A DNA stretch of 64,000 bases from Escherichia coli (GTDB taxonomy: Bacteria > Pseudomonadota > Gammaproteobacteria > Enterobacterales > Enterobacteriaceae). Position numbers and translations under genes: made by a program. Of this stretch, positions 12,035 to 48,187 are shown piece by piece. Every line of letters starts with the position of its first letter. Positions within the stretch are counted from its first letter, which is position 1. The DNA is taken from assembly GCF_030384885.1 (NCBI RefSeq), contig NZ_CP128613.1; one strand, given 5' to 3'. A model generated the notes under the pieces. The model did not search any database. It saw only the letters and a program-made list of their open reading frames with translations, and was not told the origin of the DNA.

Positions 12035-14056
12035 TTATTTCCCTCGTTTTGCTGCCATCATCGCCTTCAGATTTGCCAGATGGTTTTGGCCTTTCTGCAT
12101 TCGTTCTTCGGCGCTGACAACTTTGCGCTCCTGTTCCCATACCAAATCATCCTGCGGCAGCTCCAGCAGGAAGCGACTCGGCTCCGGGCGCACAAGTTCG
12201 CCGTACTGACGGCGTTCTTTACACAGCGTAAAGGTCAATTCCTTCTGGGCGCGGGTGATGCCAACATAGGCCAGCCGACGCTCCTCATCAATATTGTCTT
12301 CATCGATGCTGCTCTGGTGAGGCAAAAATCCTTCTTCCATACCGACCATGTAGACATAAGGAAACTCCAGCCCTTTTGACGCGTGCAGAGTCATCAGTTG
12401 TACCTGATCCAGCTCTTCCTCGCTCTCGCCGCGCTCCATCATGTCTCGCAGAGTAAAGCGCGTCACCACCTGAGTGAGCGTCATCGGCTCATCCAGTTCA
12501 CTGCCTTCCAGCATCTCCGTCATCCAGCTAAACAGTTGGTTGACGTTCTTCATGCGCATTTCGGCAGCTTTCGGGCTGGGCGATGTTTCATACAGCCAGG
12601 ATTCATAATCCATGCCGTGGATCAGATCGCGTACTGCGGCAATCGGCTCCCGCTCCGCCAGGCGCTGGATTTCCGCTAGCCAGTGAGTGAAGCGGGTCAA
12701 TGCTTCATAACCACGTCCACTAAGCGTCTGACTCAGGCCCATATCAAAACTGGCGGTAAACATACTTTTATTGCGCGTCATCGCCCACTCGCCCAGCTTT
12801 TTCAGCGTCGCCGGGCCAATCTCTCGTTTCGGCGTGTTAACGATACGCAGAAATGCGCTGTCATCGTCCGGGTTAGTCAGCACGCGCAGATAAGCCAGCA
12901 AATCTTTGATTTCTGGGCGAGAGAAAAACGACGTGCCACCGGAAATTTTGTACGGGATGCGGTTTTGCATCAGGAATTTTTCAAACACCCGCGACTGATG
13001 GTTACCGCGATAAAGAATGGCGTAATCTTTGTACTGCGTTTTATTGACGAAGTGATGGGCGATCAATTCACCGGTGACGCGCTCGGCCTCATGTTCCTCG
13101 TTATTCGCGCTTAAAACTTTTAGCTCTGTGCCGTAACCCAGTTCAGAAAAAAGACGCTTTTCAAAGACGTGCGGGTTATTGGCGATAAGGATGTTCGCCG
13201 CTTTCAGAATACGCCCGGAAGAGCGATAGTTCTGTTCGAGTTTAATCACCTTCAACGCAGGGAAATCCTGGCTCAACAGCACCAGGTTTTGCGGACGGGC
13301 ACCGCGCCAGGAGTAGATCGACTGGTCATCATCGCCTACCACGGTAAAACGTGCGCGGCTGCCCACCAGCAGTTTCACCAGCTCATACTGACTGGTGTTG
13401 GTGTCCTGATATTCATCCACCAGCAGGTAGCGAATTTTGTTCTGCCAGCGCTCGCGGACTTCTTCATTGCGTTGCAGCAGTAACGTCGGCAATAAAATCA
13501 GATCATCGAAGTCGAGAACGTTACAGGCTTTCAGGTGTGAATCATACAGCCCATAACAATGGGCAAAAATGCGATCCCGCTCGCCCTTTGCTTCTGCCGC
13601 CGCCTGCGCCGGTGTTTTGAGATCGTTCTTCCAGTTAGAGATGGTCGAAATCAGCTGTTGCAGAAGAACTTTGTCATCTTCAATCAGCCCCTCGGTCAGT
13701 TCTTTGAGCAACGCCAGTTGATCGGTATCGTCAAACAGTGAAAAGTTCGCTTTCATCCCAAGCGCCGCATACTCCCGTTTGATGATATCCAGCCCTAATG
13801 TATGGAAGGTGGAGATCATCAGCCCGCGCGCCTCTTTACGCCCCAGCGTCTGCCCGACACGCTCTTTCATCTCGCGCGCCGCCTTATTGGTAAAGGTCAC
13901 CGCCGCGATATGTCGCGCCTGATAACCGCAACCGCGGATCAGATGGGCGATTTTATTGGTGATAACACGAGTTTTACCGGAACCCGCGCCCGCCAGCACC
14001 AGGCAGGGGCCGGTAACGAATTCGACAGCTTGTTGTTGGCCGGGGTTTAGACGCAT
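12035..14056 (-). CDS. rep: ATP-dependent DNA helicase Rep
   Basis: ORF 12035..14107; recognised start [31 protein letters not shown] (673 aa); UvrD-family motifs. Confidence 0.9.
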
Positions 14057-14272
14057 AGGTGTATTGCTCAATCTTCGAACGGGGGGAGGATTGTAGCAGA
14101 ATCGCATTTGAATGTGACCGAGTGAAAACCGCTAACCGGATGGCTGCGGATGTTTAAATCAGAGAGGGAAGGCCGAAACCGGAGTTCATCATGAATCCAT
14201 TAGACTTAGAAAATATCGGGTCGTAACGTTGTGTTATTACTTTTTCAGAGTTTACTAAGGAGAGGTTTACTC

Positions 14273-14722
14273 GTGGCGATTAATTTCAGCCCCAAGGTTG
14301 GTGAAATACTGGAATGCAACTTTGGTAACTATCCCGTTAGCCAGAATGGACAGTTCAGCACGACGTATTACGATGGCCGCATTCCACCTGAGATGATAAA
14401 AAATAGGTTGGTTGTCGTGCTCAACGGAAAAATTAATGGCAACGCATGTATCGTCGTTCCATTATCAACCACTCGCGACCATGACAAGTTAAATCGTGGA
14501 ATGCATGTTGAAATAGCCAGTAATGTTATCAATGACCTGCAATTCTTTGATCCGCAGATACGTTGGGCTAAAGCCGACCTGGTACAACAAGTCAGTCGAA
14601 ACCGATTAAACAGAGCAAGGACTTATCGGGGGTATCTTAATCAATGTTTGCCACATGAGTTGGTTGCAGACATACAGAGGGCAGTCATCAAGTCAATCAA
14701 TGCCATATCGCTCATAAATTGA
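14273..14722 (+). CDS. yifN: MazF/PemK-like toxin-fold protein YifN
   Basis: ORF 14231..14722; AAGGAGA RBS 9 nt before GTG at 14273; PemK-like segments (KVGEIL..., RLVVVL, CIVVPLSTT); position between rep and ppiC. Confidence 0.65.
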   Translation: MAINFSPKVGEILECNFGNYPVSQNGQFSTTYYDGRIPPEMIKNRLVVVLNGKINGNACIVVPLSTTRDHDKLNRGMHVEIASNVINDLQFFDPQIRWAKADLVQQVSRNRLNRARTYRGYLNQCLPHELVADIQRAVIKSINAISLIN

Positions 14723-14797
14723 CAATAAAATCACCATCCCCGATAATGACTCTGTAGCCCATAGAGGCCCTAAGTTTTCTCCCCTTGAGGGACCTGC

Positions 14798-14822
14798 GAA
14801 GCCCGGATTTTCCGGGCTTTTG
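14798..14822 (+). terminator. hairpin downstream of yifN
   Basis: GAAGCCCGG-ATTT-CCGGGCTT stem-loop followed by a short T-run. Confidence 0.45.
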
Positions 14823-14849
14823 CCATATATGTCCCCCCTCCCTGACTGA

Positions 14850-15155
<306 letters not shown>

Positions 15156-16825: not shown

Positions 16826-17716
16826 TTGGATTTACGCGATCTGAAAACCTTCCTGCATCTGGCGGAAAGCCGCCATTTTGGCCGCAGCGCGCGGGCGATG
16901 CACGTTAGTCCATCCACGCTTTCCCGACAGATTCAGCGCCTGGAAGAAGATCTCGGTCAGCAGCTGTTTGTGCGCGATAACCGTACGGTGACGCTGACCG
17001 AAGCGGGCGAAGAACTGCGCGTTTTCGCCCAGCAAACACTGTTGCAGTATCAGCAATTGCGCCACACCATCGACCAGCAAGGACCGTCGCTCTCTGGCGA
17101 ATTACATATCTTCTGCTCGGTGACCGCTGCCTACAGCCATCTGCCGCCGATTCTTGACAGATTCCGCGCGGAACACCCGTCAGTGGAGATCAAACTCACT
17201 ACCGGTGATGCGGCGGATGCGATGGAAAAAGTGGTGACGGGGGAAGCGGATCTGGCGATTGCCGGGAAGCCGGAGACGCTGCCCGGTGCAGTGGCGTTTT
17301 CGATGCTGGAGAATCTGGCAGTGGTGCTGATCGCGCCTGCCCTACCGTGCCCGGTGCGTAATCAGGTTTCGGTAGAGAAGCCGGACTGGTCTACAGTGCC
17401 GTTTATCATGGCAGATCAGGGGCCGGTGCGCCGCCGCATTGAGCTGTGGTTCCGACGCAATAAAATCAGTAACCCGATGATTTACGCCACGGTTGGCGGA
17501 CATGAAGCGATGGTTTCGATGGTGGCGCTCGGCTGCGGCGTGGCATTGTTGCCGGAAGTGGTGCTGGAAAACAGCCCGGAACCGGTGCGTAACCGCGTGA
17601 TGATTCTGGAGCGTAGCGATGAGAAAACGCCGTTTGAGCTGGGCGTTTGTGCACAAAAAAAGCGGCTGCATGAGCCGCTGATTGAGGCTTTCTGGAAGAT
17701 TTTACCGAATTACTAA
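16826..17716 (+). CDS. ilvY: LysR-family transcriptional activator of ilvC
   Basis: Protein reads (M)[44 protein letters not shown]...; the codon encoding the first residue is TTG at 16826, no in-frame ATG nearby. Confidence 0.85.
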
Positions 17717-17726
17717 GGACAATTTC

Positions 17727-18116
17727 ATGACAACAAGAAAGTGGATATTATTATTGGTTTTAGCGGTAAGTTGCATTGCGCAAGCCAAACCGAAAGGTAT
17801 CACCGTTCAGGATGTGAAGCATCTGGCGTTGAAAGAGTGTTTAACGTCCCATTATCGTGAGCGTACGCCCGCTGATGCCTTTTCGGCTCCTGCTCATGAC
17901 GTTTCATTTCTGCTTGAAAGGTATGCTTTAGATAATGCTGGAAAGTGGAATGCTTTTCAGAAATTTGTCGCCAAAGAGACGAAGGGATTTGGCACCCTCA
18001 CCCTTGCGCTACATCCCGATAGCGCAAAGGATGCGAATAACATAATGGAGCGGTGTATGAGCTTTTATGAGTCGGAAAAGCTTGATAATTACATTCGTAA
18101 TAAGATTATGAAGTAA
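17727..18116 (+). CDS. hypothetical small exported protein (predicted signal peptide; possible lipobox)
   Basis: ATG with AAGGA RBS 8 nt upstream, starting 10 nt after the ilvY stop; N-terminus MTTRKWILLLVLAVSCIAQA|KPKG has n/h/c signal regions and an AxA site; two Cys in the mature part. No family recognised. Confidence 0.6.
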   Translation: MTTRKWILLLVLAVSCIAQAKPKGITVQDVKHLALKECLTSHYRERTPADAFSAPAHDVSFLLERYALDNAGKWNAFQKFVAKETKGFGTLTLALHPDSAKDANNIMERCMSFYESEKLDNYIRNKIMK

Positions 18117-18134
18117 ATCGTGAGAAATAAATAC

Positions 18135-18725
18135 ATGGCAAAAAATAATAATCACTTACCATCGAATATCGATAATTTCTCTATCCATAAGAAATACACC
18201 CACATATTTGACATTGCCTTTGTAAAGTTTGGTGCCAGACTGGCAGATGTACAAATGACACTATTCAAAAACACATCGCCCTCAGTTTATACACTTCAAT
18301 GTATAAGTGACGATGAATTGTTCTTTATTGATATTTACGAAGATGAGCAAGCCGTGTTAGCAGAACACCGAATTATTGATAATGAAGAAAATATTGTTTT
18401 CATCCCACATTGTTTTACAAAAATGTTAATGACTGCTTGTCAGGAAGCTAAAAAACAACCTGCTTTATACACGGAAGATATACTAATGAGCAAAAGAGTG
18501 CGTCGCCAGCGACTATCACAGACTATGCCTGCTCTGGTGAGCCTACGTGACATCCATATCGATTTTAGGACCAGTTACGGACATGGCGAAGCCTCATACG
18601 AGATCAATTTTAGTCCATACGCTATCGAAAATGGTGACTGGATGAACGCTAAAAGGTGCAGAAATTTTTCTGTTATGTTCGATGAGAATATGAATTTTAT
18701 AGAAGTTCAATGGTATAGGGATTAA
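18135..18725 (+). CDS. hypothetical cytoplasmic protein (196 aa), AT-rich gene
   Basis: ORF 18120..18725; likely start is the ATG at 18135 (MAKNNNHLPSN...); no TM or signal peptide; visibly AT-rich codon usage; no recognisable motif. Confidence 0.55.
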   Translation: MAKNNNHLPSNIDNFSIHKKYTHIFDIAFVKFGARLADVQMTLFKNTSPSVYTLQCISDDELFFIDIYEDEQAVLAEHRIIDNEENIVFIPHCFTKMLMTACQEAKKQPALYTEDILMSKRVRRQRLSQTMPALVSLRDIHIDFRTSYGHGEASYEINFSPYAIENGDWMNAKRCRNFSVMFDENMNFIEVQWYRD

Positions 18726-18731
18726 AAAAAC

Positions 18732-19205
18732 TTAAACCGAAACACGATTTGGAAACATAACAACCTCCACTTCAATTTCTGTTAAATTACTTAAATTGAT
18801 TATCAGTTTTAACTCTGAATGTTCGTTAATTGCCATCAAAATATCATTGCTAACAGAAATAAAGCTTATTGGGTTAGTCTGGGTAAAAAAGAATCCCCAG
18901 ACAAAATTATTATCAGCATCTATATATACCAACGATCCCTCGTTTCCCATCGTTCCATCACCGCCGTAGATTTTCCCGCCTTTATACTCAGTAAATGTCC
19001 AGTAGTCGACGGGAACCCAGCAATCAGAATCGTATTTTTCAATACTGGAGAAGGATGTATCACACAAAGGAGTACACCAGGCTTTCTTCTCTTTCGTGTA
19101 ATTATCGAAAGACTCCCGCCAGTTTAAAAGGGTGACAGTCCCATTCGCAAAGGTCAGGCTATCGATTCCAGGTAACTCTTTTTTCTCTTCCCAGCGTTTA
19201 AACAT
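18732..19205 (-). CDS. hypothetical cytoplasmic protein (157 aa)
   Basis: ATG at 19205 with AAGGA RBS 9 nt upstream; stop lies 6 bp from the stop of the preceding plus-strand ORF (tail-to-tail); AT-rich; no recognisable motif. Confidence 0.55.
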   Translation of the reverse strand: MFKRWEEKKELPGIDSLTFANGTVTLLNWRESFDNYTKEKKAWCTPLCDTSFSSIEKYDSDCWVPVDYWTFTEYKGGKIYGGDGTMGNEGSLVYIDADNNFVWGFFFTQTNPISFISVSNDILMAINEHSELKLIINLSNLTEIEVEVVMFPNRVSV

Positions 19206-19240
19206 GACAATAAATCCTTTTATTTCATCACGTAGTATAA

Positions 19241-19268
19241 CTCCCTAATGAAGACGTTCATTAGGGAG
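19241..19268 (-). terminator. perfect 12-bp inverted repeat just downstream of the ilvA stop
   Basis: CTCCCTAATGAA-GACG-TTCATTAGGGAG; weak U-tract, so possibly a leaky terminator or processing site. Confidence 0.45.
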
Positions 19269-19276
19269 CCATGTGT

Positions 19277-20821
19277 TTAACCCGCCAAAAAGAACCTGAA
19301 CGCCGGGTTATGGGTTTCGTCGTGGCAATCGTAGCCCAGCTCATTTAGCCGGGTTTCGAAATCCGGTTCGTGGTCGCCAAGCTCGAACGCCGCCAGTACG
19401 CGCCCGTAGTCGGTACCGTGGCTGCGATAATGGAAAAGCGAAATGTTCCAGTGGGTACCTAGCGTGTTGAGGAAGCGCAGCAGCGCGCCCGGCGATTCCG
19501 GGAACTCGAAGCTGTAGAGGCGTTCCTGCAACGGATGCGATGGACGCCCACCAACCATATAGCGCACGTGTAGCTTCGCCATTTCGTCGTCGGAGAGATC
19601 AACCACGCTGTAGCCGCCATCGTTGAGCATCTGCAAAATTTCTTTACGCTCTTCGAGCCCTCGACTTAAGCGCACGCCGACAAAAATGCAGGCGTTTTTG
19701 GCATCGGCAAAGCGGTAGTTGAACTCGGTGACCGAGCGCCCGCCAAGCAGTTGGCAGAACTTCAGGAAGCTGCCCTTCTCTTCCGGGATAGTCACCGCCA
19801 GCAACGCTTCACGCTGTTCACCCAGTTCGCAGCGTTCCGAGACGTAGCGCAGGCCGTGGAAATTGACATTCGCCCCCGAAAGCACATGCGCCAGTCGTTC
19901 GCCGCGAATATTGTTCTGGGCGATGTATTTTTTCATTCCCGCCAGCGCCAGCGCGCCGGAAGGTTCCGCCACCGCGCGCACATCTTCGAATAAATCCTTC
20001 ATCGCCGCACAGATCGCATCACTATCGACGGTGATGATGTCGTCGAGATACTCCTGGCATAAACGGAATGTTTCGTCGCCAATGCGTTTTACCGCTACGC
20101 CTTCAGCAAATAGCCCCACGCGCGGCAGATCAACCGGATGACCCGCATCCAGCGCCGCTTTCAGGCAGGCGGAGTCTTCCGCTTCAACGGCAATCACTTT
20201 GATTTGCGGCATCAGTTGTTTGATCAGCACCGCCACACCCGCCGCCAGACCGCCGCCGCCGACCGGCACAAACACGCGGTCAAGATGGGCATCCTGCTGG
20301 AGCAGTTCCAGCGCCAGCGTGCCTTGCCCGGCGATCACCATCGGGTGGTCGAACGGCGGCACCCAGGTGAAGCCCTGCTGCTGTGACAGTTCGATCGCTT
20401 TCGCTTTTGCTTCGTCAAAGTTCGCGCCATGAAGCAACACTTCGCCGCCAAAGCCGCGTACCGCATCAACTTTGATATCGGCGGTGGCGGTTGGCATGAC
20501 GATCAGCGCCTTCACGCCTAACCGCGCGGAGGAAAACGCGACGCCCTGCGCGTGATTACCCGCCGAGGCAGTGATCACGCCATGCGCTTTTTGTTCTTCC
20601 GTCAGGCCCGCCATCATGGCGTATGCACCGCGCAGCTTAAAGCTGTGTACCGGCTGGCGATCTTCGCGCTTCACCAGAATCACGTTATCAAGACGCGACG
20701 AGAGCTTTTCCATTTTTTGTAGCGGCGTGACCTGCGCCGCCTCGTAAACCGGTGCACGTAGCACCGCTCTTAAATATTCGGCGCCTTCCGGAGCACCAGA
20801 CAGGGGTTGTGAGTCTGCCAT
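19277..20821 (-). CDS. ilvA: threonine deaminase (biosynthetic threonine dehydratase)
   Basis: ORF 19277..20824; recognised start MADSQPLSGAPEGAEYLRAVLRAPVYEAAQVTPLQKMEKLS (514 aa). Confidence 0.95.
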   Translation of the reverse strand: MADSQPLSGAPEGAEYLRAVLRAPVYEAAQVTPLQKMEKLSSRLDNVILVKREDRQPVHSFKLRGAYAMMAGLTEEQKAHGVITASAGNHAQGVAFSSARLGVKALIVMPTATADIKVDAVRGFGGEVLLHGANFDEAKAKAIELSQQQGFTWVPPFDHPMVIAGQGTLALELLQQDAHLDRVFVPVGGGGLAAGVAVLIKQLMPQIKVIAVEAEDSACLKAALDAGHPVDLPRVGLFAEGVAVKRIGDETFRLCQEYLDDIITVDSDAICAAMKDLFEDVRAVAEPSGALALAGMKKYIAQNNIRGERLAHVLSGANVNFHGLRYVSERCELGEQREALLAVTIPEEKGSFLKFCQLLGGRSVTEFNYRFADAKNACIFVGVRLSRGLEERKEILQMLNDGGYSVVDLSDDEMAKLHVRYMVGGRPSHPLQERLYSFEFPESPGALLRFLNTLGTHWNISLFHYRSHGTDYGRVLAAFELGDHEPDFETRLNELGYDCHDETHNPAFRFFLAG

Positions 20822-35722: not shown

Positions 35723-37150
35723 ATGAGCGATAAAAAGAAGCGCAGTATGGCGGGTTTGCCGTGGATCGCGGCGATGGCCTTCTTCATGCAGGCACTTGAT
35801 GCCACTATTCTGAATACCGCCTTACCCGCAATCGCTCATAGCCTTAATCGTTCTCCTCTCGCGATGCAATCAGCCATCATCAGTTACACGCTGACGGTGG
35901 CGATGCTTATTCCGGTAAGCGGATGGCTAGCCGATCGCTTCGGTACGCGTCGCATATTTACCCTTGCCGTGAGTCTGTTCACATTGGGTTCTCTGGCCTG
36001 CGCACTTTCTAACTCGCTACCACAGCTGGTTGTCTTCCGGGTTATTCAGGGGATAGGTGGCGCAATGATGATGCCTGTTGCTCGGCTGGCCTTACTGCGT
36101 GCTTATCCTCGTAATGAGCTTCTTCCTGTATTGAATTTTGTCGCCATGCCGGGTCTGGTGGGGCCAATTTTAGGCCCCGTACTTGGCGGCGTGCTGGTCA
36201 CCTGGGCAACCTGGCACTGGATATTTTTAATCAATATCCCCATAGGTATTGCCGGCCTTCTTTACGCGCGCAAACATATGCCCAATTTCACCACCGCACG
36301 ACGCAGATTCGATATCACTGGCTTTTTGCTGTTTGGCCTCAGCCTTGTTCTCTTCTCAAGCGGAATAGAGCTATTCGGTGAAAAGATTGTCGCCAGTTGG
36401 ATTGCCTTGACGGTAATTGTCACCAGCATCGGGTTACTGCTTCTCTATATTCTCCATGCACGACGCACGCTAAACCCATTAATTTCATTAGATTTATTTA
36501 AAACCCGCACTTTCTCGATCGGTATAGTAGGCAATATTGCAACCCGTCTGGGGACCGGCTGTGTACCGTTCCTTATGCCATTGATGTTACAGGTAGGATT
36601 TGGTTATCAGGCGTTTATTGCCGGCTGTATGATGGCACCGACAGCGTTAGGTTCCATTATTGCAAAATCGATGGTTACCCAAGTCTTACGTCGTCTGGGC
36701 TATCGCCATACGTTAGTGGGGATCACGGTAATTATTGGGCTAATGATCGCTCAGTTCTCTTTGCAATCACCAGCAATGGCGATATGGATGCTGATCTTGC
36801 CGTTGTTTATATTAGGGATGGCTATGTCGACGCAATTTACCGCGATGAATACCATCACACTTGCCGATCTGACCGATGACAACGCCAGCAGCGGTAACAG
36901 TGTTCTGGCGGTCACGCAGCAACTGTCTATCAGTTTAGGCGTTGCTGTAAGTGCGGCCGTCCTTCGCGTTTATGAAGGGATGGAAGGCACAACGACTGTC
37001 GAACAATTCCACTATACGTTTATCACAATGGGCATTATTACTGTTGCTTCAGCAGCAATGTTCATGCTTCTGAAAACAACCGATGGTAATAATTTGATCA
37101 AAAGACAGCGTAAATCTAAGCCGAACCGCGTTCCATCAGAATCGGAGTAA
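35723..37150 (+). CDS. hsrA: MFS-family efflux transporter HsrA/YieO
   Basis: 475-aa polytopic membrane ORF; 22 bp after yieP (operon). Confidence 0.85.
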
Positions 37151-48183: not shown

Positions 48184-48187
48184 ACAA

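What the first reader, a model, noticed from the sequence alone, without database searches (positions are those of the whole stretch)
18135..19205. Islet genes 2 and 3 are tail-to-tail with only 6 bp between their stop codons
The plus-strand 196-aa ORF stops at 18725 and the minus-strand 157-aa ORF stops at 18732. There is no room for a terminator on either strand, so the two transcripts must overlap at their 3' ends unless termination occurs inside the partner gene. Both genes are AT-rich and lack signal peptides or TM segments. Such an arrangement allows mutual antisense interference and is unusual for housekeeping genes.
Basis: seen in the sequence. Interest (0 to 1): 0.6.

Follow-up and report, generated by a model that had tools for sequence, protein, structure and literature searches.

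The report
Ordinary tail-to-tail junction, orphan-immunity islet
Two real genes do end 6 bp apart, but such tight tail-to-tail pairs are routine in E. coli; the two genes are unrelated passengers of a small foreign islet, and one of them most likely protects against a toxin injected by rival bacteria.

Summary
A 196-aa plus-strand ORF (g2, 18135-18725) and a 157-aa minus-strand ORF (g3, 18732-19205) are separated by 6 bp, with no terminator between them. Both are AT-rich and lack a signal peptide or TM segment.

In 150 kb of this genome, 7 of 19 other convergent gene pairs are 6 bp or less apart or overlap. The islet sits exactly between ilvY and ilvA, which overlap by 4 bp in ordinary E. coli and are a classic case of convergent overlapping transcription.

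g2 and g3 are not a coupled pair:
- g2 is an Escherichia-only ORFan under weak constraint, and only a frameshifted remnant survives in E. albertii.
- g3 stays intact there and has relatives in over 100 species, none with a g2-like neighbour.

In Chitinophaga and Flavobacterium, g3 homologues lie directly downstream of an Rhs toxin tip. In one Paenibacillus, a homologue sits in a long immunity-gene array. g3 is therefore most likely an orphan immunity gene. g1 weakly resembles the Tai4/Rap T6SS immunity proteins.

Verdict: an ordinary junction inside a small orphan-immunity islet at a recombination hotspot. Low interest.

The parts
16826..17716 (+). ilvY (LysR-type activator), the native left flank of the islet
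   Evidence: PGAP annotation of the identical record. In islet-free E. coli its stop codon overlaps the ilvA stop by 4 bp.
17661..17679 (-). Intrinsic terminator (AGCGGCTCATGCAGCCGCT followed by T7) inside the 3' end of ilvY. It is the native ilvGMEDA-side terminator, now about 1 kb beyond the g3 stop codon.
   Evidence: Terminator scan. The identical site lies 34 nt past the ilvA stop in islet-free E. coli L004.
17717..19276 (.). AT-rich islet (38.7% GC) inserted exactly between the ilvY and ilvA stop codons
   Evidence: Composition. Present in 2 of 5,426 complete E. coli genomes. Boundaries come from comparison with L004. The same slot holds other cargo in other strains and genera.
17727..18116 (+). 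g1: 129-aa secreted protein (signal peptide ending AQA|KPK), a distant Tai4/Rap-like candidate periplasmic T6SS amidase-immunity protein
   Evidence: Hydropathy. Pfam Tai4 E = 0.015, with 13 of 20 family members at E <= 0.1 and a best value of 6.5e-4. The top PDB hit for the family profile is Serratia Rap1b 4ax2, E = 0.18, full length and including both Cys motifs. The gene is anchored next to ilvY in Escherichia, Pseudocitrobacter, Salmonella and Superficieibacter.
18135..18725 (+). g2: 196-aa cytoplasmic ORFan restricted to Escherichia, function unknown, weakly constrained
   Evidence: No hit in Pfam, NCBIfam, PADLOC or PHROGs. An exhaustive phmmer search of 1.84 billion representatives finds only its own cluster. 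dN/dS is 0.48-0.72, with an in-frame 18-nt indel. AF2 pLDDT is 51. Only a frameshifted remnant survives in E. albertii.
18726..18731 (.). 6-bp spacer AAAAAC between the two stop codons (5 bp in E. fergusonii and E. albertii)
   Evidence: Sequence. Junction alignment of the window with L002, L005, L007 and L008 and with the E. albertii sequence.
18732..19205 (-). g3: 157-aa member of an uncatalogued family with a three-blade partial beta-propeller fold, most likely an orphan polymorphic-toxin (Rhs-tip) immunity protein
19241..19268 (.). Conserved 12-bp-stem palindromic hairpin between the ilvA stop and the g3 start, part of the islet, with no proper U-tract on the minus strand
   Evidence: Scan. 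Folding z = -3.4 on the minus strand and -4.65 on the plus strand. Conserved in E. fergusonii and E. albertii.
19277..20821 (-). ilvA (threonine deaminase), the native right flank. g3 lies 71 nt downstream of it on the same strand.
   Evidence: Annotation.

Best explanation
The 6-bp tail-to-tail junction is the meeting point of two independently evolving cargo genes. They belong to a 1.56-kb AT-rich islet that sits exactly between the convergent ilvY and ilvA genes, which overlap in islet-free strains. The islet is typical of E. fergusonii and rare in E. coli.

Gene identities:
- g3 is most likely an orphan immunity gene. Its relatives sit directly behind an Rhs toxin tip in Bacteroidota and inside a long immunity-gene array in one Paenibacillus genome.
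- g1 is probably an orphan Tai4/Rap-like periplasmic immunity protein.
- g2 is a dispensable, weakly constrained, Escherichia-only ORFan of unknown function.

Shown here: the geometry, the absence of a terminator at the junction, the independence of g2 and g3, the toxin-linked contexts of g3 relatives, and how common such junctions are.

Inferred: plus-strand transcripts come from the ilvY/g1/g2 side, and minus-strand transcripts come from ilvGMEDA read-through or a g3 promoter. Each runs past its stop codon into the partner gene. They overlap at their 3' ends, as at most convergent E. coli operons. They probably end through Rho acting on the untranslated, C-rich and G-poor antisense RNA, or at the distal structures (the minus-strand terminator at 17679-17661 and the hairpin at 19241-19268). 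Any antisense interference is a by-product of compact packing and not a dedicated regulatory device.
For: Geometry and lack of structure at the junction.

Baseline for tight junctions: 7 of 19 other convergent CDS pairs are 6 bp or less apart or overlap. Native ilvY/ilvA overlap by 4 bp, with the terminator inside ilvY. Literature: 75% of convergent E. coli operons overlap at their 3' ends, and ilvA/ilvY is a classic case (PMC4161252). Convergent genes lacking a terminator are a recognised class of overlapping transcription (PMC7154746).

Independence of g2 and g3:
- g2 is found only in Escherichia.
- E. albertii keeps g3 at 92% identity next to a frameshifted g2 remnant and unrelated genes.
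- In Superficieibacter, the g3 homologue converges on a different 110-aa gene with a 15-bp overlap.
- None of the 80 g3 loci from other species has a g2-like sequence, apart from an E. fergusonii-like contig and the E. albertii remnant.

Immunity role of g3:
- An Rhs protein is confirmed by NCBIfam and Pfam.
- The shared tip lies immediately upstream of a g3 homologue five times in four species.
- A displaced-orphan layout occurs in L097.
- The Paenibacillus array lies behind a VgrG-like Endonuclease_NS_2 protein.
- Foldseek gives a full-length match to an Imm21-annotated protein.

g1.

Rut-like composition past each stop codon: C16/G6 and C17/G5 in the first 80 nt.

Orphan Tai4 genes and orphan immunity arrays are documented in Pantoea (PMC9796082).
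Against: No transcript data, so the 3' overlap and Rho termination are inferred.

The toxin tip lies next to a g3 homologue in only 4 of 80 loci, all Bacteroidota. In Flavobacterium johnsoniae and F. limi, and in several Paenibacillus genomes, the homologue is a stable stand-alone gene among housekeeping genes. That would also fit a non-immunity role.

No g3 family member reaches the Pfam Imm21 or DUF1851 models, and no solved structure matches over the full length.

The g1-Tai4 link is below significance (best E = 6.5e-4; PDB profile hit E = 0.18).

No enterobacterial toxin carrying the cognate tip was found or could be searched for.

The junction plus about 80 nt of the g2 3' end is retained in E. 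albertii. That could mean the sequence matters for g3.
Confidence: 0.7

Rival explanations
1. g2 and g3 form a functional two-gene module (toxin-antitoxin, effector-immunity or a defence pair) whose convergent, terminator-less layout gives reciprocal antisense control.
For: The junction is conserved at 5-6 bp in E. coli, E. fergusonii and E. albertii. Both genes are foreign, AT-rich and unannotated. Loss of g2 with retention of g3 in E. albertii resembles the pattern in which a toxin is lost and its immunity gene is kept.
Against: g3 relatives in over 100 species never have a g2-like neighbour. g2 has no relatives outside Escherichia. g2 has no similarity to the tip that pairs with g3 homologues (BLASTP E = 7; hhalign probability 0.07%). 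There are no PADLOC hits. In Superficieibacter, g3 converges on an unrelated gene. Toxin-immunity and type II TA pairs are normally co-directional operons, based on established knowledge of those families.
Confidence: 0.06
2. g2 is not a functional gene. It is a decaying or chance ORF, so the locus holds one real gene (g3) next to non-coding or pseudogenic DNA.
For: dN/dS is 0.48-0.72, and below 1 at p = 0.25, 0.016 and 0.052 in three comparisons. Differences by codon position are 12/12/16 against L005. The chance of the ORF staying open under random substitutions is 0.06-0.17. The AF2 model is poor, at pLDDT 51. The Shine-Dalgarno sequence is weak. Only a frameshifted remnant survives in E. 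albertii. It has no homologues anywhere else.
Against: A 196-202-codon ORF is intact in four alleles in 37%-GC DNA, with an in-frame 18-nt indel. Against L007, differences are enriched at the third codon position (18/17/32), with p = 0.016. No competing ORF lies on the other strand. PGAP calls it a CDS.
Confidence: 0.2
3. The junction is a selected, excludon-type switch. Transcription from the ilvY side and from the ilvGMEDA side reciprocally repress g3 and g1/g2 through long overlapping 3' UTRs.
For: No terminator lies between the genes. The nearest terminator-like structures are about 0.5 kb and 1 kb into the partner genes. About 80 nt of the g2 3' end stays attached to g3 in E. albertii. 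Convergent genes without a terminator are a recognised excludon layout (PMC7154746).
Against: The same layout is the default for a third of convergent pairs in this genome and for native ilvY/ilvA. The junction has no conserved structure. The partner of g3 differs between genera.
Confidence: 0.1
4. g3 is not an immunity protein. It is a small oligomerising beta-propeller protein with a cellular function of its own, and the Rhs and array contexts are incidental.
For: Stable synteny (panB, g3 homologue, pseudouridine synthase) in Flavobacterium, and stand-alone copies in several Paenibacillus genomes. Strongly invariant motifs that look like a binding or catalytic site. No Pfam Imm family hit.
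Against: Five adjacencies immediately downstream of the same toxin tip, including two stand-alone tip cassettes and a displaced-orphan layout. Placement in a roughly 30-gene immunity array. Patchy cross-phylum distribution, in 112 of about 100,000 species. AT-rich islet context in Escherichia.
Confidence: 0.2

Closest known systems
Convergent, overlapping ilvA/ilvY transcription units of E. coli K-12 (Sameshima, Wek and Hatfield 1989, as cited in PMC4161252), and the general class of convergent operons with overlapping 3' ends
   Same: Same chromosomal site. Convergent genes with no intergenic terminator, and termination signals located inside the partner gene.
   Different: Here the pair is two horizontally acquired genes inserted between ilvY and ilvA. 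The native minus-strand terminator now lies about 1 kb beyond the g3 stop codon. No transcript mapping exists for this strain.
Excludon, the class formed by convergent genes lacking a terminator (Sesto et al. 2013; Toledo-Arana and Lasa 2020, PMC7154746)
   Same: The layout permits long complementary 3' UTRs.
   Different: An excludon is defined by demonstrated reciprocal repression, which is untested here. The partner of g3 varies between genera, which argues against a selected pairing.
Orphan immunity genes and arrays of polymorphic toxin and T6SS systems (for example the Pantoea hcp, vgrG and paar islands, PMC9796082; Rhs orphan modules)
   Same: g3 homologues follow Rhs tips, follow stand-alone tip cassettes, occur as displaced orphans, and sit in a long immunity array. 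g1 resembles Tai4, which occurs as an orphan in Pantoea.
   Different: The Escherichia islet is not inside a T6SS or rhs locus. It lies between two amino-acid biosynthesis genes. No cognate toxin was identified in Enterobacteriaceae, and the g3 family and its tip are absent from Pfam and NCBIfam.
Tai4/Rap family of periplasmic T6SS amidase immunity proteins (Pfam PF16695; Serratia Rap1b, PDB 4ax2), relevant to g1
   Same: About 130 aa, with a signal peptide. A full-length weak alignment includes the two conserved Cys-containing motifs.
   Different: Scores are below significance, there is no adjacent Tae4 effector, and there is no structural test.
Imm21 and DUF1851 (the domain in the Tdi1 and Tdi2 immunity proteins, PMC4096383), relevant to g3
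   Same: Foldseek gives full-length matches to AFDB proteins carrying these annotations (E = 7e-11 with TM 0.72; 35% identity with TM 0.85).
   Different: 0 of 44 g3 family members match either Pfam model. The link rests on predicted structures and third-party annotation only.

Membership tests
Convergent genes with overlapping 3' transcription (excludon layout) | Convergent orientation with no terminator between the stop codons | tested here: met
   6-bp spacer. No terminator-like site at the junction and no significant fold there.
Convergent genes with overlapping 3' transcription (excludon layout) | Complementary transcripts observed, with reciprocal repression | not testable with these tools
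   No RNA data. Needs strand-specific RNA-seq or Term-seq and promoter or terminator perturbation.
Type II toxin-antitoxin module (g2 + g3) | Two co-occurring genes, normally a co-directional operon, with recognisable toxin or antitoxin domains | tested here: not met
   The genes are convergent. No Pfam, NCBIfam or PADLOC domains. g3 occurs without g2 in over 100 species, and g2 is an ORFan.
Known anti-phage defence systems (PADLOC) | Match to a defence-system protein model | tested here: not met
   0 families for g1, g2 and g3 at E <= 0.1. No PHROGs family either.
Polymorphic-toxin immunity protein (g3) | Encoded immediately downstream of a toxin C-terminal tip, on the same strand | tested here: met
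   Five adjacencies in four species: Rhs-tip proteins in L088 (two copies) and L103, and stand-alone tip cassettes in L086 and L098. This holds for homologues, not for the E. coli copy, which is an orphan.
Polymorphic-toxin immunity protein (g3) | Occurs in arrays of immunity genes or as a displaced orphan behind a different tip | tested here: met
   Paenibacillus sp. Root52 array with SUKH, YezG, Imm48 and DUF6630 genes behind a VgrG-like Endonuclease_NS_2 protein. L097 has an Rhs protein with a different tip and its own small ORF, followed by the g3 homologue.
Polymorphic-toxin immunity protein (g3) | Binds and neutralises the cognate toxin | not testable with these tools
   Needs co-expression rescue or complex modelling.
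Pfam Imm21 / DUF1851 (g3) | Sequence match to the family HMM | tested here: not met
   0 of 44 family members match. There is only Foldseek similarity to AFDB entries carrying those labels.
Tai4/Rap T6SS amidase immunity family (g1) | Significant match to PF16695 or to a solved Tai4/Rap protein | tested here: inconclusive
   E = 0.015 for g1. 13 of 20 relatives reach E <= 0.1, with a best value of 6.5e-4. Rap1b 4ax2 is the top PDB hit at E = 0.18, aligned over residues 30-126.
Tai4/Rap T6SS amidase immunity family (g1) | Periplasmic location (signal peptide) | tested here: met
   N-terminal hydrophobic segment ending AQA|KPK, with a Kyte-Doolittle maximum of 1.63 at residue 7.
Tai4/Rap T6SS amidase immunity family (g1) | Adjacent Tae4 effector gene | tested here: not met
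   No effector lies in the islet in any genus examined. If g1 is a Tai4, it is an orphan.

The most novel reading that the evidence does not exclude
The g2/g3 junction could be a selected antisense module. On this reading, g3, an immunity gene riding on ilvGMEDA read-through, and g1/g2, riding on ilvY-side transcription, would tune each other through long complementary 3' UTRs. The about 80 nt of the g2 3' end that E. albertii keeps attached to g3 after destroying g2 would be retained because it serves as the 3' UTR of g3. Immunity-gene expression would then be coupled to branched-chain amino-acid regulation.
Probability: 0.06. Interest if true: 0.5.

Novelty: new member of a known kind. Interest (0 to 1): 0.2.

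Why it matters
As stated, the finding does not matter much. Tight or overlapping tail-to-tail genes are the norm in E. coli, and this pair is not functionally coupled.

The by-products have modest value:
1. The ilvY/ilvA junction is a recurrent cargo slot across Enterobacteriaceae.
2. g3 defines an uncatalogued family with a partial beta-propeller fold and no solved structure. Genomic context points to immunity against an equally uncatalogued Rhs toxin tip.
3. A commensal or pathogenic E. coli lineage may carry orphan immunity genes outside any T6SS or rhs locus, which is relevant to interbacterial competition in the gut.

Tried and rejected
- Family searches of g1, g2 and g3 against Pfam, NCBIfam, PADLOC and PHROGs gave nothing significant.
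- The exhaustive HMMER search with g2 found only its own cluster. The g2 AF2 model (pLDDT 51) was too poor to fold-search. The g2 profile against PDB gave only a borderline hit, 3o60 Lin0861 at E = 0.074, which I did not interpret.
- I tested whether g2 could be the toxin that g3 neutralises. It has no similarity to the tip by BLASTP or hhalign.
- I tested whether g3 is an Imm21 or DUF1851 member by sequence. It is not. There is no full-length match among solved structures, only generic propeller blades.
- Identifying the tip failed: no Pfam or NCBIfam family, and only a weak ParB arginine-box resemblance (E = 0.31), kept as a lead.
- I looked for a hidden bidirectional terminator at the junction and found none.
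Full report
**Observation**

The window is the E. coli ilv region. Its gene order is rep, a PemK/MazF-annotated ORF, ppiC, ilvC, ilvY, the islet, then ilvA, ilvD, ilvE, ilvM and ilvG. It is 100% identical over the 1,751-bp query spanning the islet to strain 2013C-4282, accession CP027579.

The plus-strand ORF runs from ATG 18135 to TAA 18723-18725 (196 aa). The minus-strand ORF is 18732-19205 (157 aa). The spacer between them is AAAAAC. PGAP calls the same CDSs and names all three islet genes hypothetical.

| Feature | g2 | g3 | Comparison |
|---|---|---|---|
| GC content | 36.7% | 38.6% | window 51%, ilvY and ilvA 57-58% |
| Max hydropathy (19-residue window) | 0.94 | 1.14 | g1 has a signal peptide |

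Neither g2 nor g3 has a TM segment or signal peptide. No terminator-like site lies at the junction. The 100 nt around it fold no better than shuffled sequence, with z = -1.0 and -0.6.

**Is the arrangement unusual?**

No. I tabulated every adjacent convergent pair of intact CDSs in 150 kb of the same genome. The finding itself, pseudogenes and RNA genes were left out. That gave 19 pairs with these gaps:

| Region | Gaps between stop codons (bp; negative = overlap) |
|---|---|
| Window, first 50 kb | 47, 45, 24, -35, 4 |
| Record 500,001-550,000 | 107, 603, -12, -4, 43, 39, 33 |
| Record 2,000,001-2,050,000 | 121, 0, 9, 3, -4, 121, 79 |

Seven of the 19 (37%) are 6 bp or less apart or overlap. 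Two of these lie in the window itself: mdtD/rbsR overlap by 35 bp and viaA/asnA are 4 bp apart.

In islet-free E. coli, ilvY and ilvA overlap by 4 bp. The minus-strand intrinsic terminator that follows ilvA lies inside the ilvY coding sequence, 34 nt past the ilvA stop.

Conway et al. 2014 (PMC4161252) found that 276 of 370 convergent operons in E. coli K-12 have complementary 3' ends, overlapping by 286 nt on average. [quoted passage not shown] The islet therefore sits in a textbook site of convergent overlapping transcription, and its internal junction repeats the native solution.

**Are both ORFs real?**

g3 clearly is.
- It has 47 homologue clusters across Paenibacillus, Bacteroidota, Synergistaceae and others.
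- The motifs PLCDT, GDGxMGNEG and NPI are invariant.
- dN/dS is 0.14-0.41.
- The AF2 model is confident, at pLDDT 89.

g2 is probably real but weakly constrained.
- Four alleles (77-99% identity) keep a 196-202-codon ORF open in 37%-GC DNA, including an in-frame 18-nt indel.
- dN/dS is 0.48-0.72. It is below 1 at p = 0.016 in one comparison and at p = 0.25 and 0.052 in the other two.
- The chance of the ORF staying open under random substitutions is 0.06-0.17.
- An exhaustive HMMER search of 1.84 billion representative proteins finds only its own cluster.

**Are g2 and g3 a pair?**

No.

1. E. albertii carries g3 at 92% identity in the same place next to ilvA. Of g2 it keeps only the last 40 or so codons, broken by a 16-nt deletion, attached to the same junction (TAA, AAAAC, TCA). 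Upstream of that remnant lie two unrelated ORFs of 185 and 219 aa whose N-termini looked flavodoxin-like to me (the 219-aa one has only a weak EFR1 ferredoxin hit), then a 293-bp gap that contains the remnant. The junction is therefore ancestral, g2 was lost, and g3 survived.
2. In Superficieibacter electus the order is ilvY (93% identical), a g1 homologue (60%), a 110-aa ORF, then a g3 homologue (54%) converging on that ORF with a 15-bp overlap. The 110-aa ORF is homologous to the Salmonella 124-aa islet gene, not to g2.
3. A scan of about 100,000 species-representative genomes found 112 g3 relatives. In the 80 loci retrieved, profile and tblastn searches found g2 only in one fergusonii-like contig and in the E. 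albertii remnant.
4. The downstream neighbour of g3 homologues is co-directional in 46 loci and convergent in 24. This rests on my crude gene calls.

**What the islet is**

The ilvY/ilvA junction is a variable cargo slot.

| Genome | Cargo between ilvY and ilvA |
|---|---|
| Most E. coli | none (the genes overlap by 4 bp) |
| E. coli AR_0077 | HTH protein + RelE/ParE toxin |
| E. fergusonii | optional PLDc_2 gene, g1, g2, g3 |
| E. albertii | HTH_37 + Gp49 toxin-antitoxin pair, g1, 185-aa and 219-aa ORFs, g2 remnant, g3 |
| Salmonella Gatineau | g1, 124-aa ORF, DUF2461 |
| Pseudocitrobacter | g1, YceK/YidQ-like lipoprotein |

Only 2 of 5,426 complete E. coli genomes carry the g1-g2-g3 islet.

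**Function of g3**

In Chitinophaga filiformis (two copies) and C. rupis, the gene immediately upstream of the g3 homologue, on the same strand, is a 1,354-1,370-aa Rhs protein.
- Its YD repeats score 134.9 bits.
- Its Rhs-associated core scores 63.7 bits, above the curated cut-off, and ends at residue 1229.
- Pfam RHS matches as well.
- The core is followed by a variable tip of about 125 aa containing LNFSQGYV...SLDNRRLxAAQ.

In Flavobacterium sp. H122 and F. davisii, the same tip is a stand-alone 128-aa ORF directly upstream of the g3 homologue. In Chitinophaga sp. GbtcB8, an Rhs protein with a different tip and its own small ORF precedes the g3 homologue. That is the classic displaced-orphan layout.

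In Paenibacillus sp. Root52, the homologue lies in a same-strand array of about 30 genes. The array contains SUKH/SMI1_KNR4, YezG-like, DUF6630 and Imm48 genes and sits behind a 963-aa VgrG-like protein with an Endonuclease_NS_2 domain.

Against this, no family member reaches either Pfam model. Many homologues are also stand-alone genes with stable synteny. I rate the orphan-immunity assignment at about 0.65-0.7.

The tip itself has no Pfam or NCBIfam family. Its best PDB profile hit is ParB (E = 0.31), aligned at the GERRxRAA box. That is a lead only.

**g1 and g2**

g1 has a signal peptide. It also shows weak but recurrent similarity to Tai4:
- Pfam E = 0.015 for g1 itself.
- 13 of 20 relatives reach E <= 0.1, with a best value of 6.5e-4.
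- Serratia Rap1b is the top PDB hit for the family profile, aligned over the full length through both Cys motifs.

Orphan Tai4 genes are documented in Pantoea (PMC9796082).

The function of g2 remains unknown. It does not resemble the tip.

**Likely mechanics of the junction (inferred)**

*Plus strand.* ilvY, g1 and g2 are separated by only 10 and 18 bp. Past the g2 stop there is nothing terminator-like until the hairpin at 19241-19268, which has a weak T-tail.

*Minus strand.* g3 lies 71 nt downstream of ilvA, behind a conserved hairpin that lacks a U-tract. Read-through from ilvGMEDA is therefore plausible. Past the g3 stop, the next convincing terminator is the native one at 17679-17661, inside ilvY.

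The first 80 nt beyond each stop codon are C-rich and G-poor, at C16/G6 and C17/G5. That composition is compatible with Rho loading on untranslated RNA. I therefore expect 3' overlap limited by Rho, as at other convergent E. coli operons, with any antisense effect being incidental.

**Verdict**

The junction is ordinary, and the two genes are independent passengers of a small islet that probably holds orphan immunity genes. This is a new member of a known kind. Interest is low, with a modest by-product in the uncatalogued g3 and tip families.

Noticed in passing
window 14273-14722 (+): A 149-aa ORF between rep and ppiC is annotated by PGAP as a PemK/MazF-family toxin. No antitoxin is called beside it, and the stretch is relatively AT-rich (45.6% GC for 14001-15000). 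NCBIfam and PADLOC scans here gave no family. E. fergusonii has a DUF7822 gene in the same slot, so this may be a second variable slot.
   Followed up: partly
window 17717-19276; loci L003, L005, L014, L017, L018, L058: The ilvY/ilvA junction is a recurrent cargo slot across Enterobacteriaceae. Cargo includes RelE/ParE or Gp49 with an HTH protein (toxin-antitoxin pairs), a PLDc_2 protein with weak DrmC/DpdK/NucT similarity, DUF2461, a pair of 185-aa and 219-aa ORFs in E. albertii whose N-termini looked flavodoxin-like, a YceK/YidQ-like lipoprotein, and the g1/g2/g3 genes. g1 is the most widely shared anchor next to ilvY.
   Followed up: partly
window 19241-19268: A strong, conserved 12-bp-stem palindromic hairpin (z = -3.4 and -4.65) lies between the ilvA stop and the g3 start. 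It belongs to the islet. It lacks a U-tract on the ilvA strand, and its role is unknown (terminator, RNA-stability element or recombination scar).
   Followed up: partly
window 18135-19205 compared with L002 (AP027764): Between the two E. coli carriers, g1 and g2 are 99.5-99.8% identical in nucleotide sequence, but g3 (94.7%), ilvA (96.3%) and ilvY (94.7%) are not. That implies recombination breakpoints near the g2/g3 junction and at the ilvY/g1 border. The ilvY of E. fergusonii L007 is E. coli-like (99.2%), while its ilvA is not (96.0%).
   Followed up: no
L014/L015 7170-7290 (E. albertii): After losing the rest of g2, E. albertii still keeps about 80-110 nt of the g2 3' end, with a 16-nt deletion, directly attached to the g3 stop codon. 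This could be a chance breakpoint, or a hint that the sequence serves as the 3' UTR of g3.
   Followed up: partly
L025 (JAEWCA010000422.1, labelled 'MAG: Actinomycetes bacterium'): This 3.2-kb contig carries g1 (92%), g2 (87%) and g3 (94%) in the E. fergusonii arrangement. It is almost certainly Escherichia sequence mis-binned into an actinomycete MAG.
   Followed up: no
L081-L094 (Aquimarina, Flexithrix), L096 (Hyphomonas): Here the g3-like domain is the C-terminal half of proteins of about 270-340 aa, with a conserved N-terminal domain of about 165 aa. AFDB labels one such protein DUF1963. In 14 loci a conserved 232-aa ORF precedes it by 2-4 bp. The function of this fused form and its partner is unknown.
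   Followed up: no
L086 4573-4956; L088 4571-4954 (Rhs tip): The toxin tip paired with g3 homologues has no Pfam or NCBIfam family. Its invariant SLDNRRLxAAQ..VPI segment aligns weakly (E = 0.31) with the GERRxRAA arginine box of ParB, suggesting a ParB/Srx-like toxin domain.
   Followed up: partly
window 37116-37150 and 48184-48187: mdtD and rbsR overlap tail-to-tail by 35 bp, and viaA and asnA end 4 bp apart. Both are tighter than or equal to the reported junction, and both involve core genes.
   Followed up: yes
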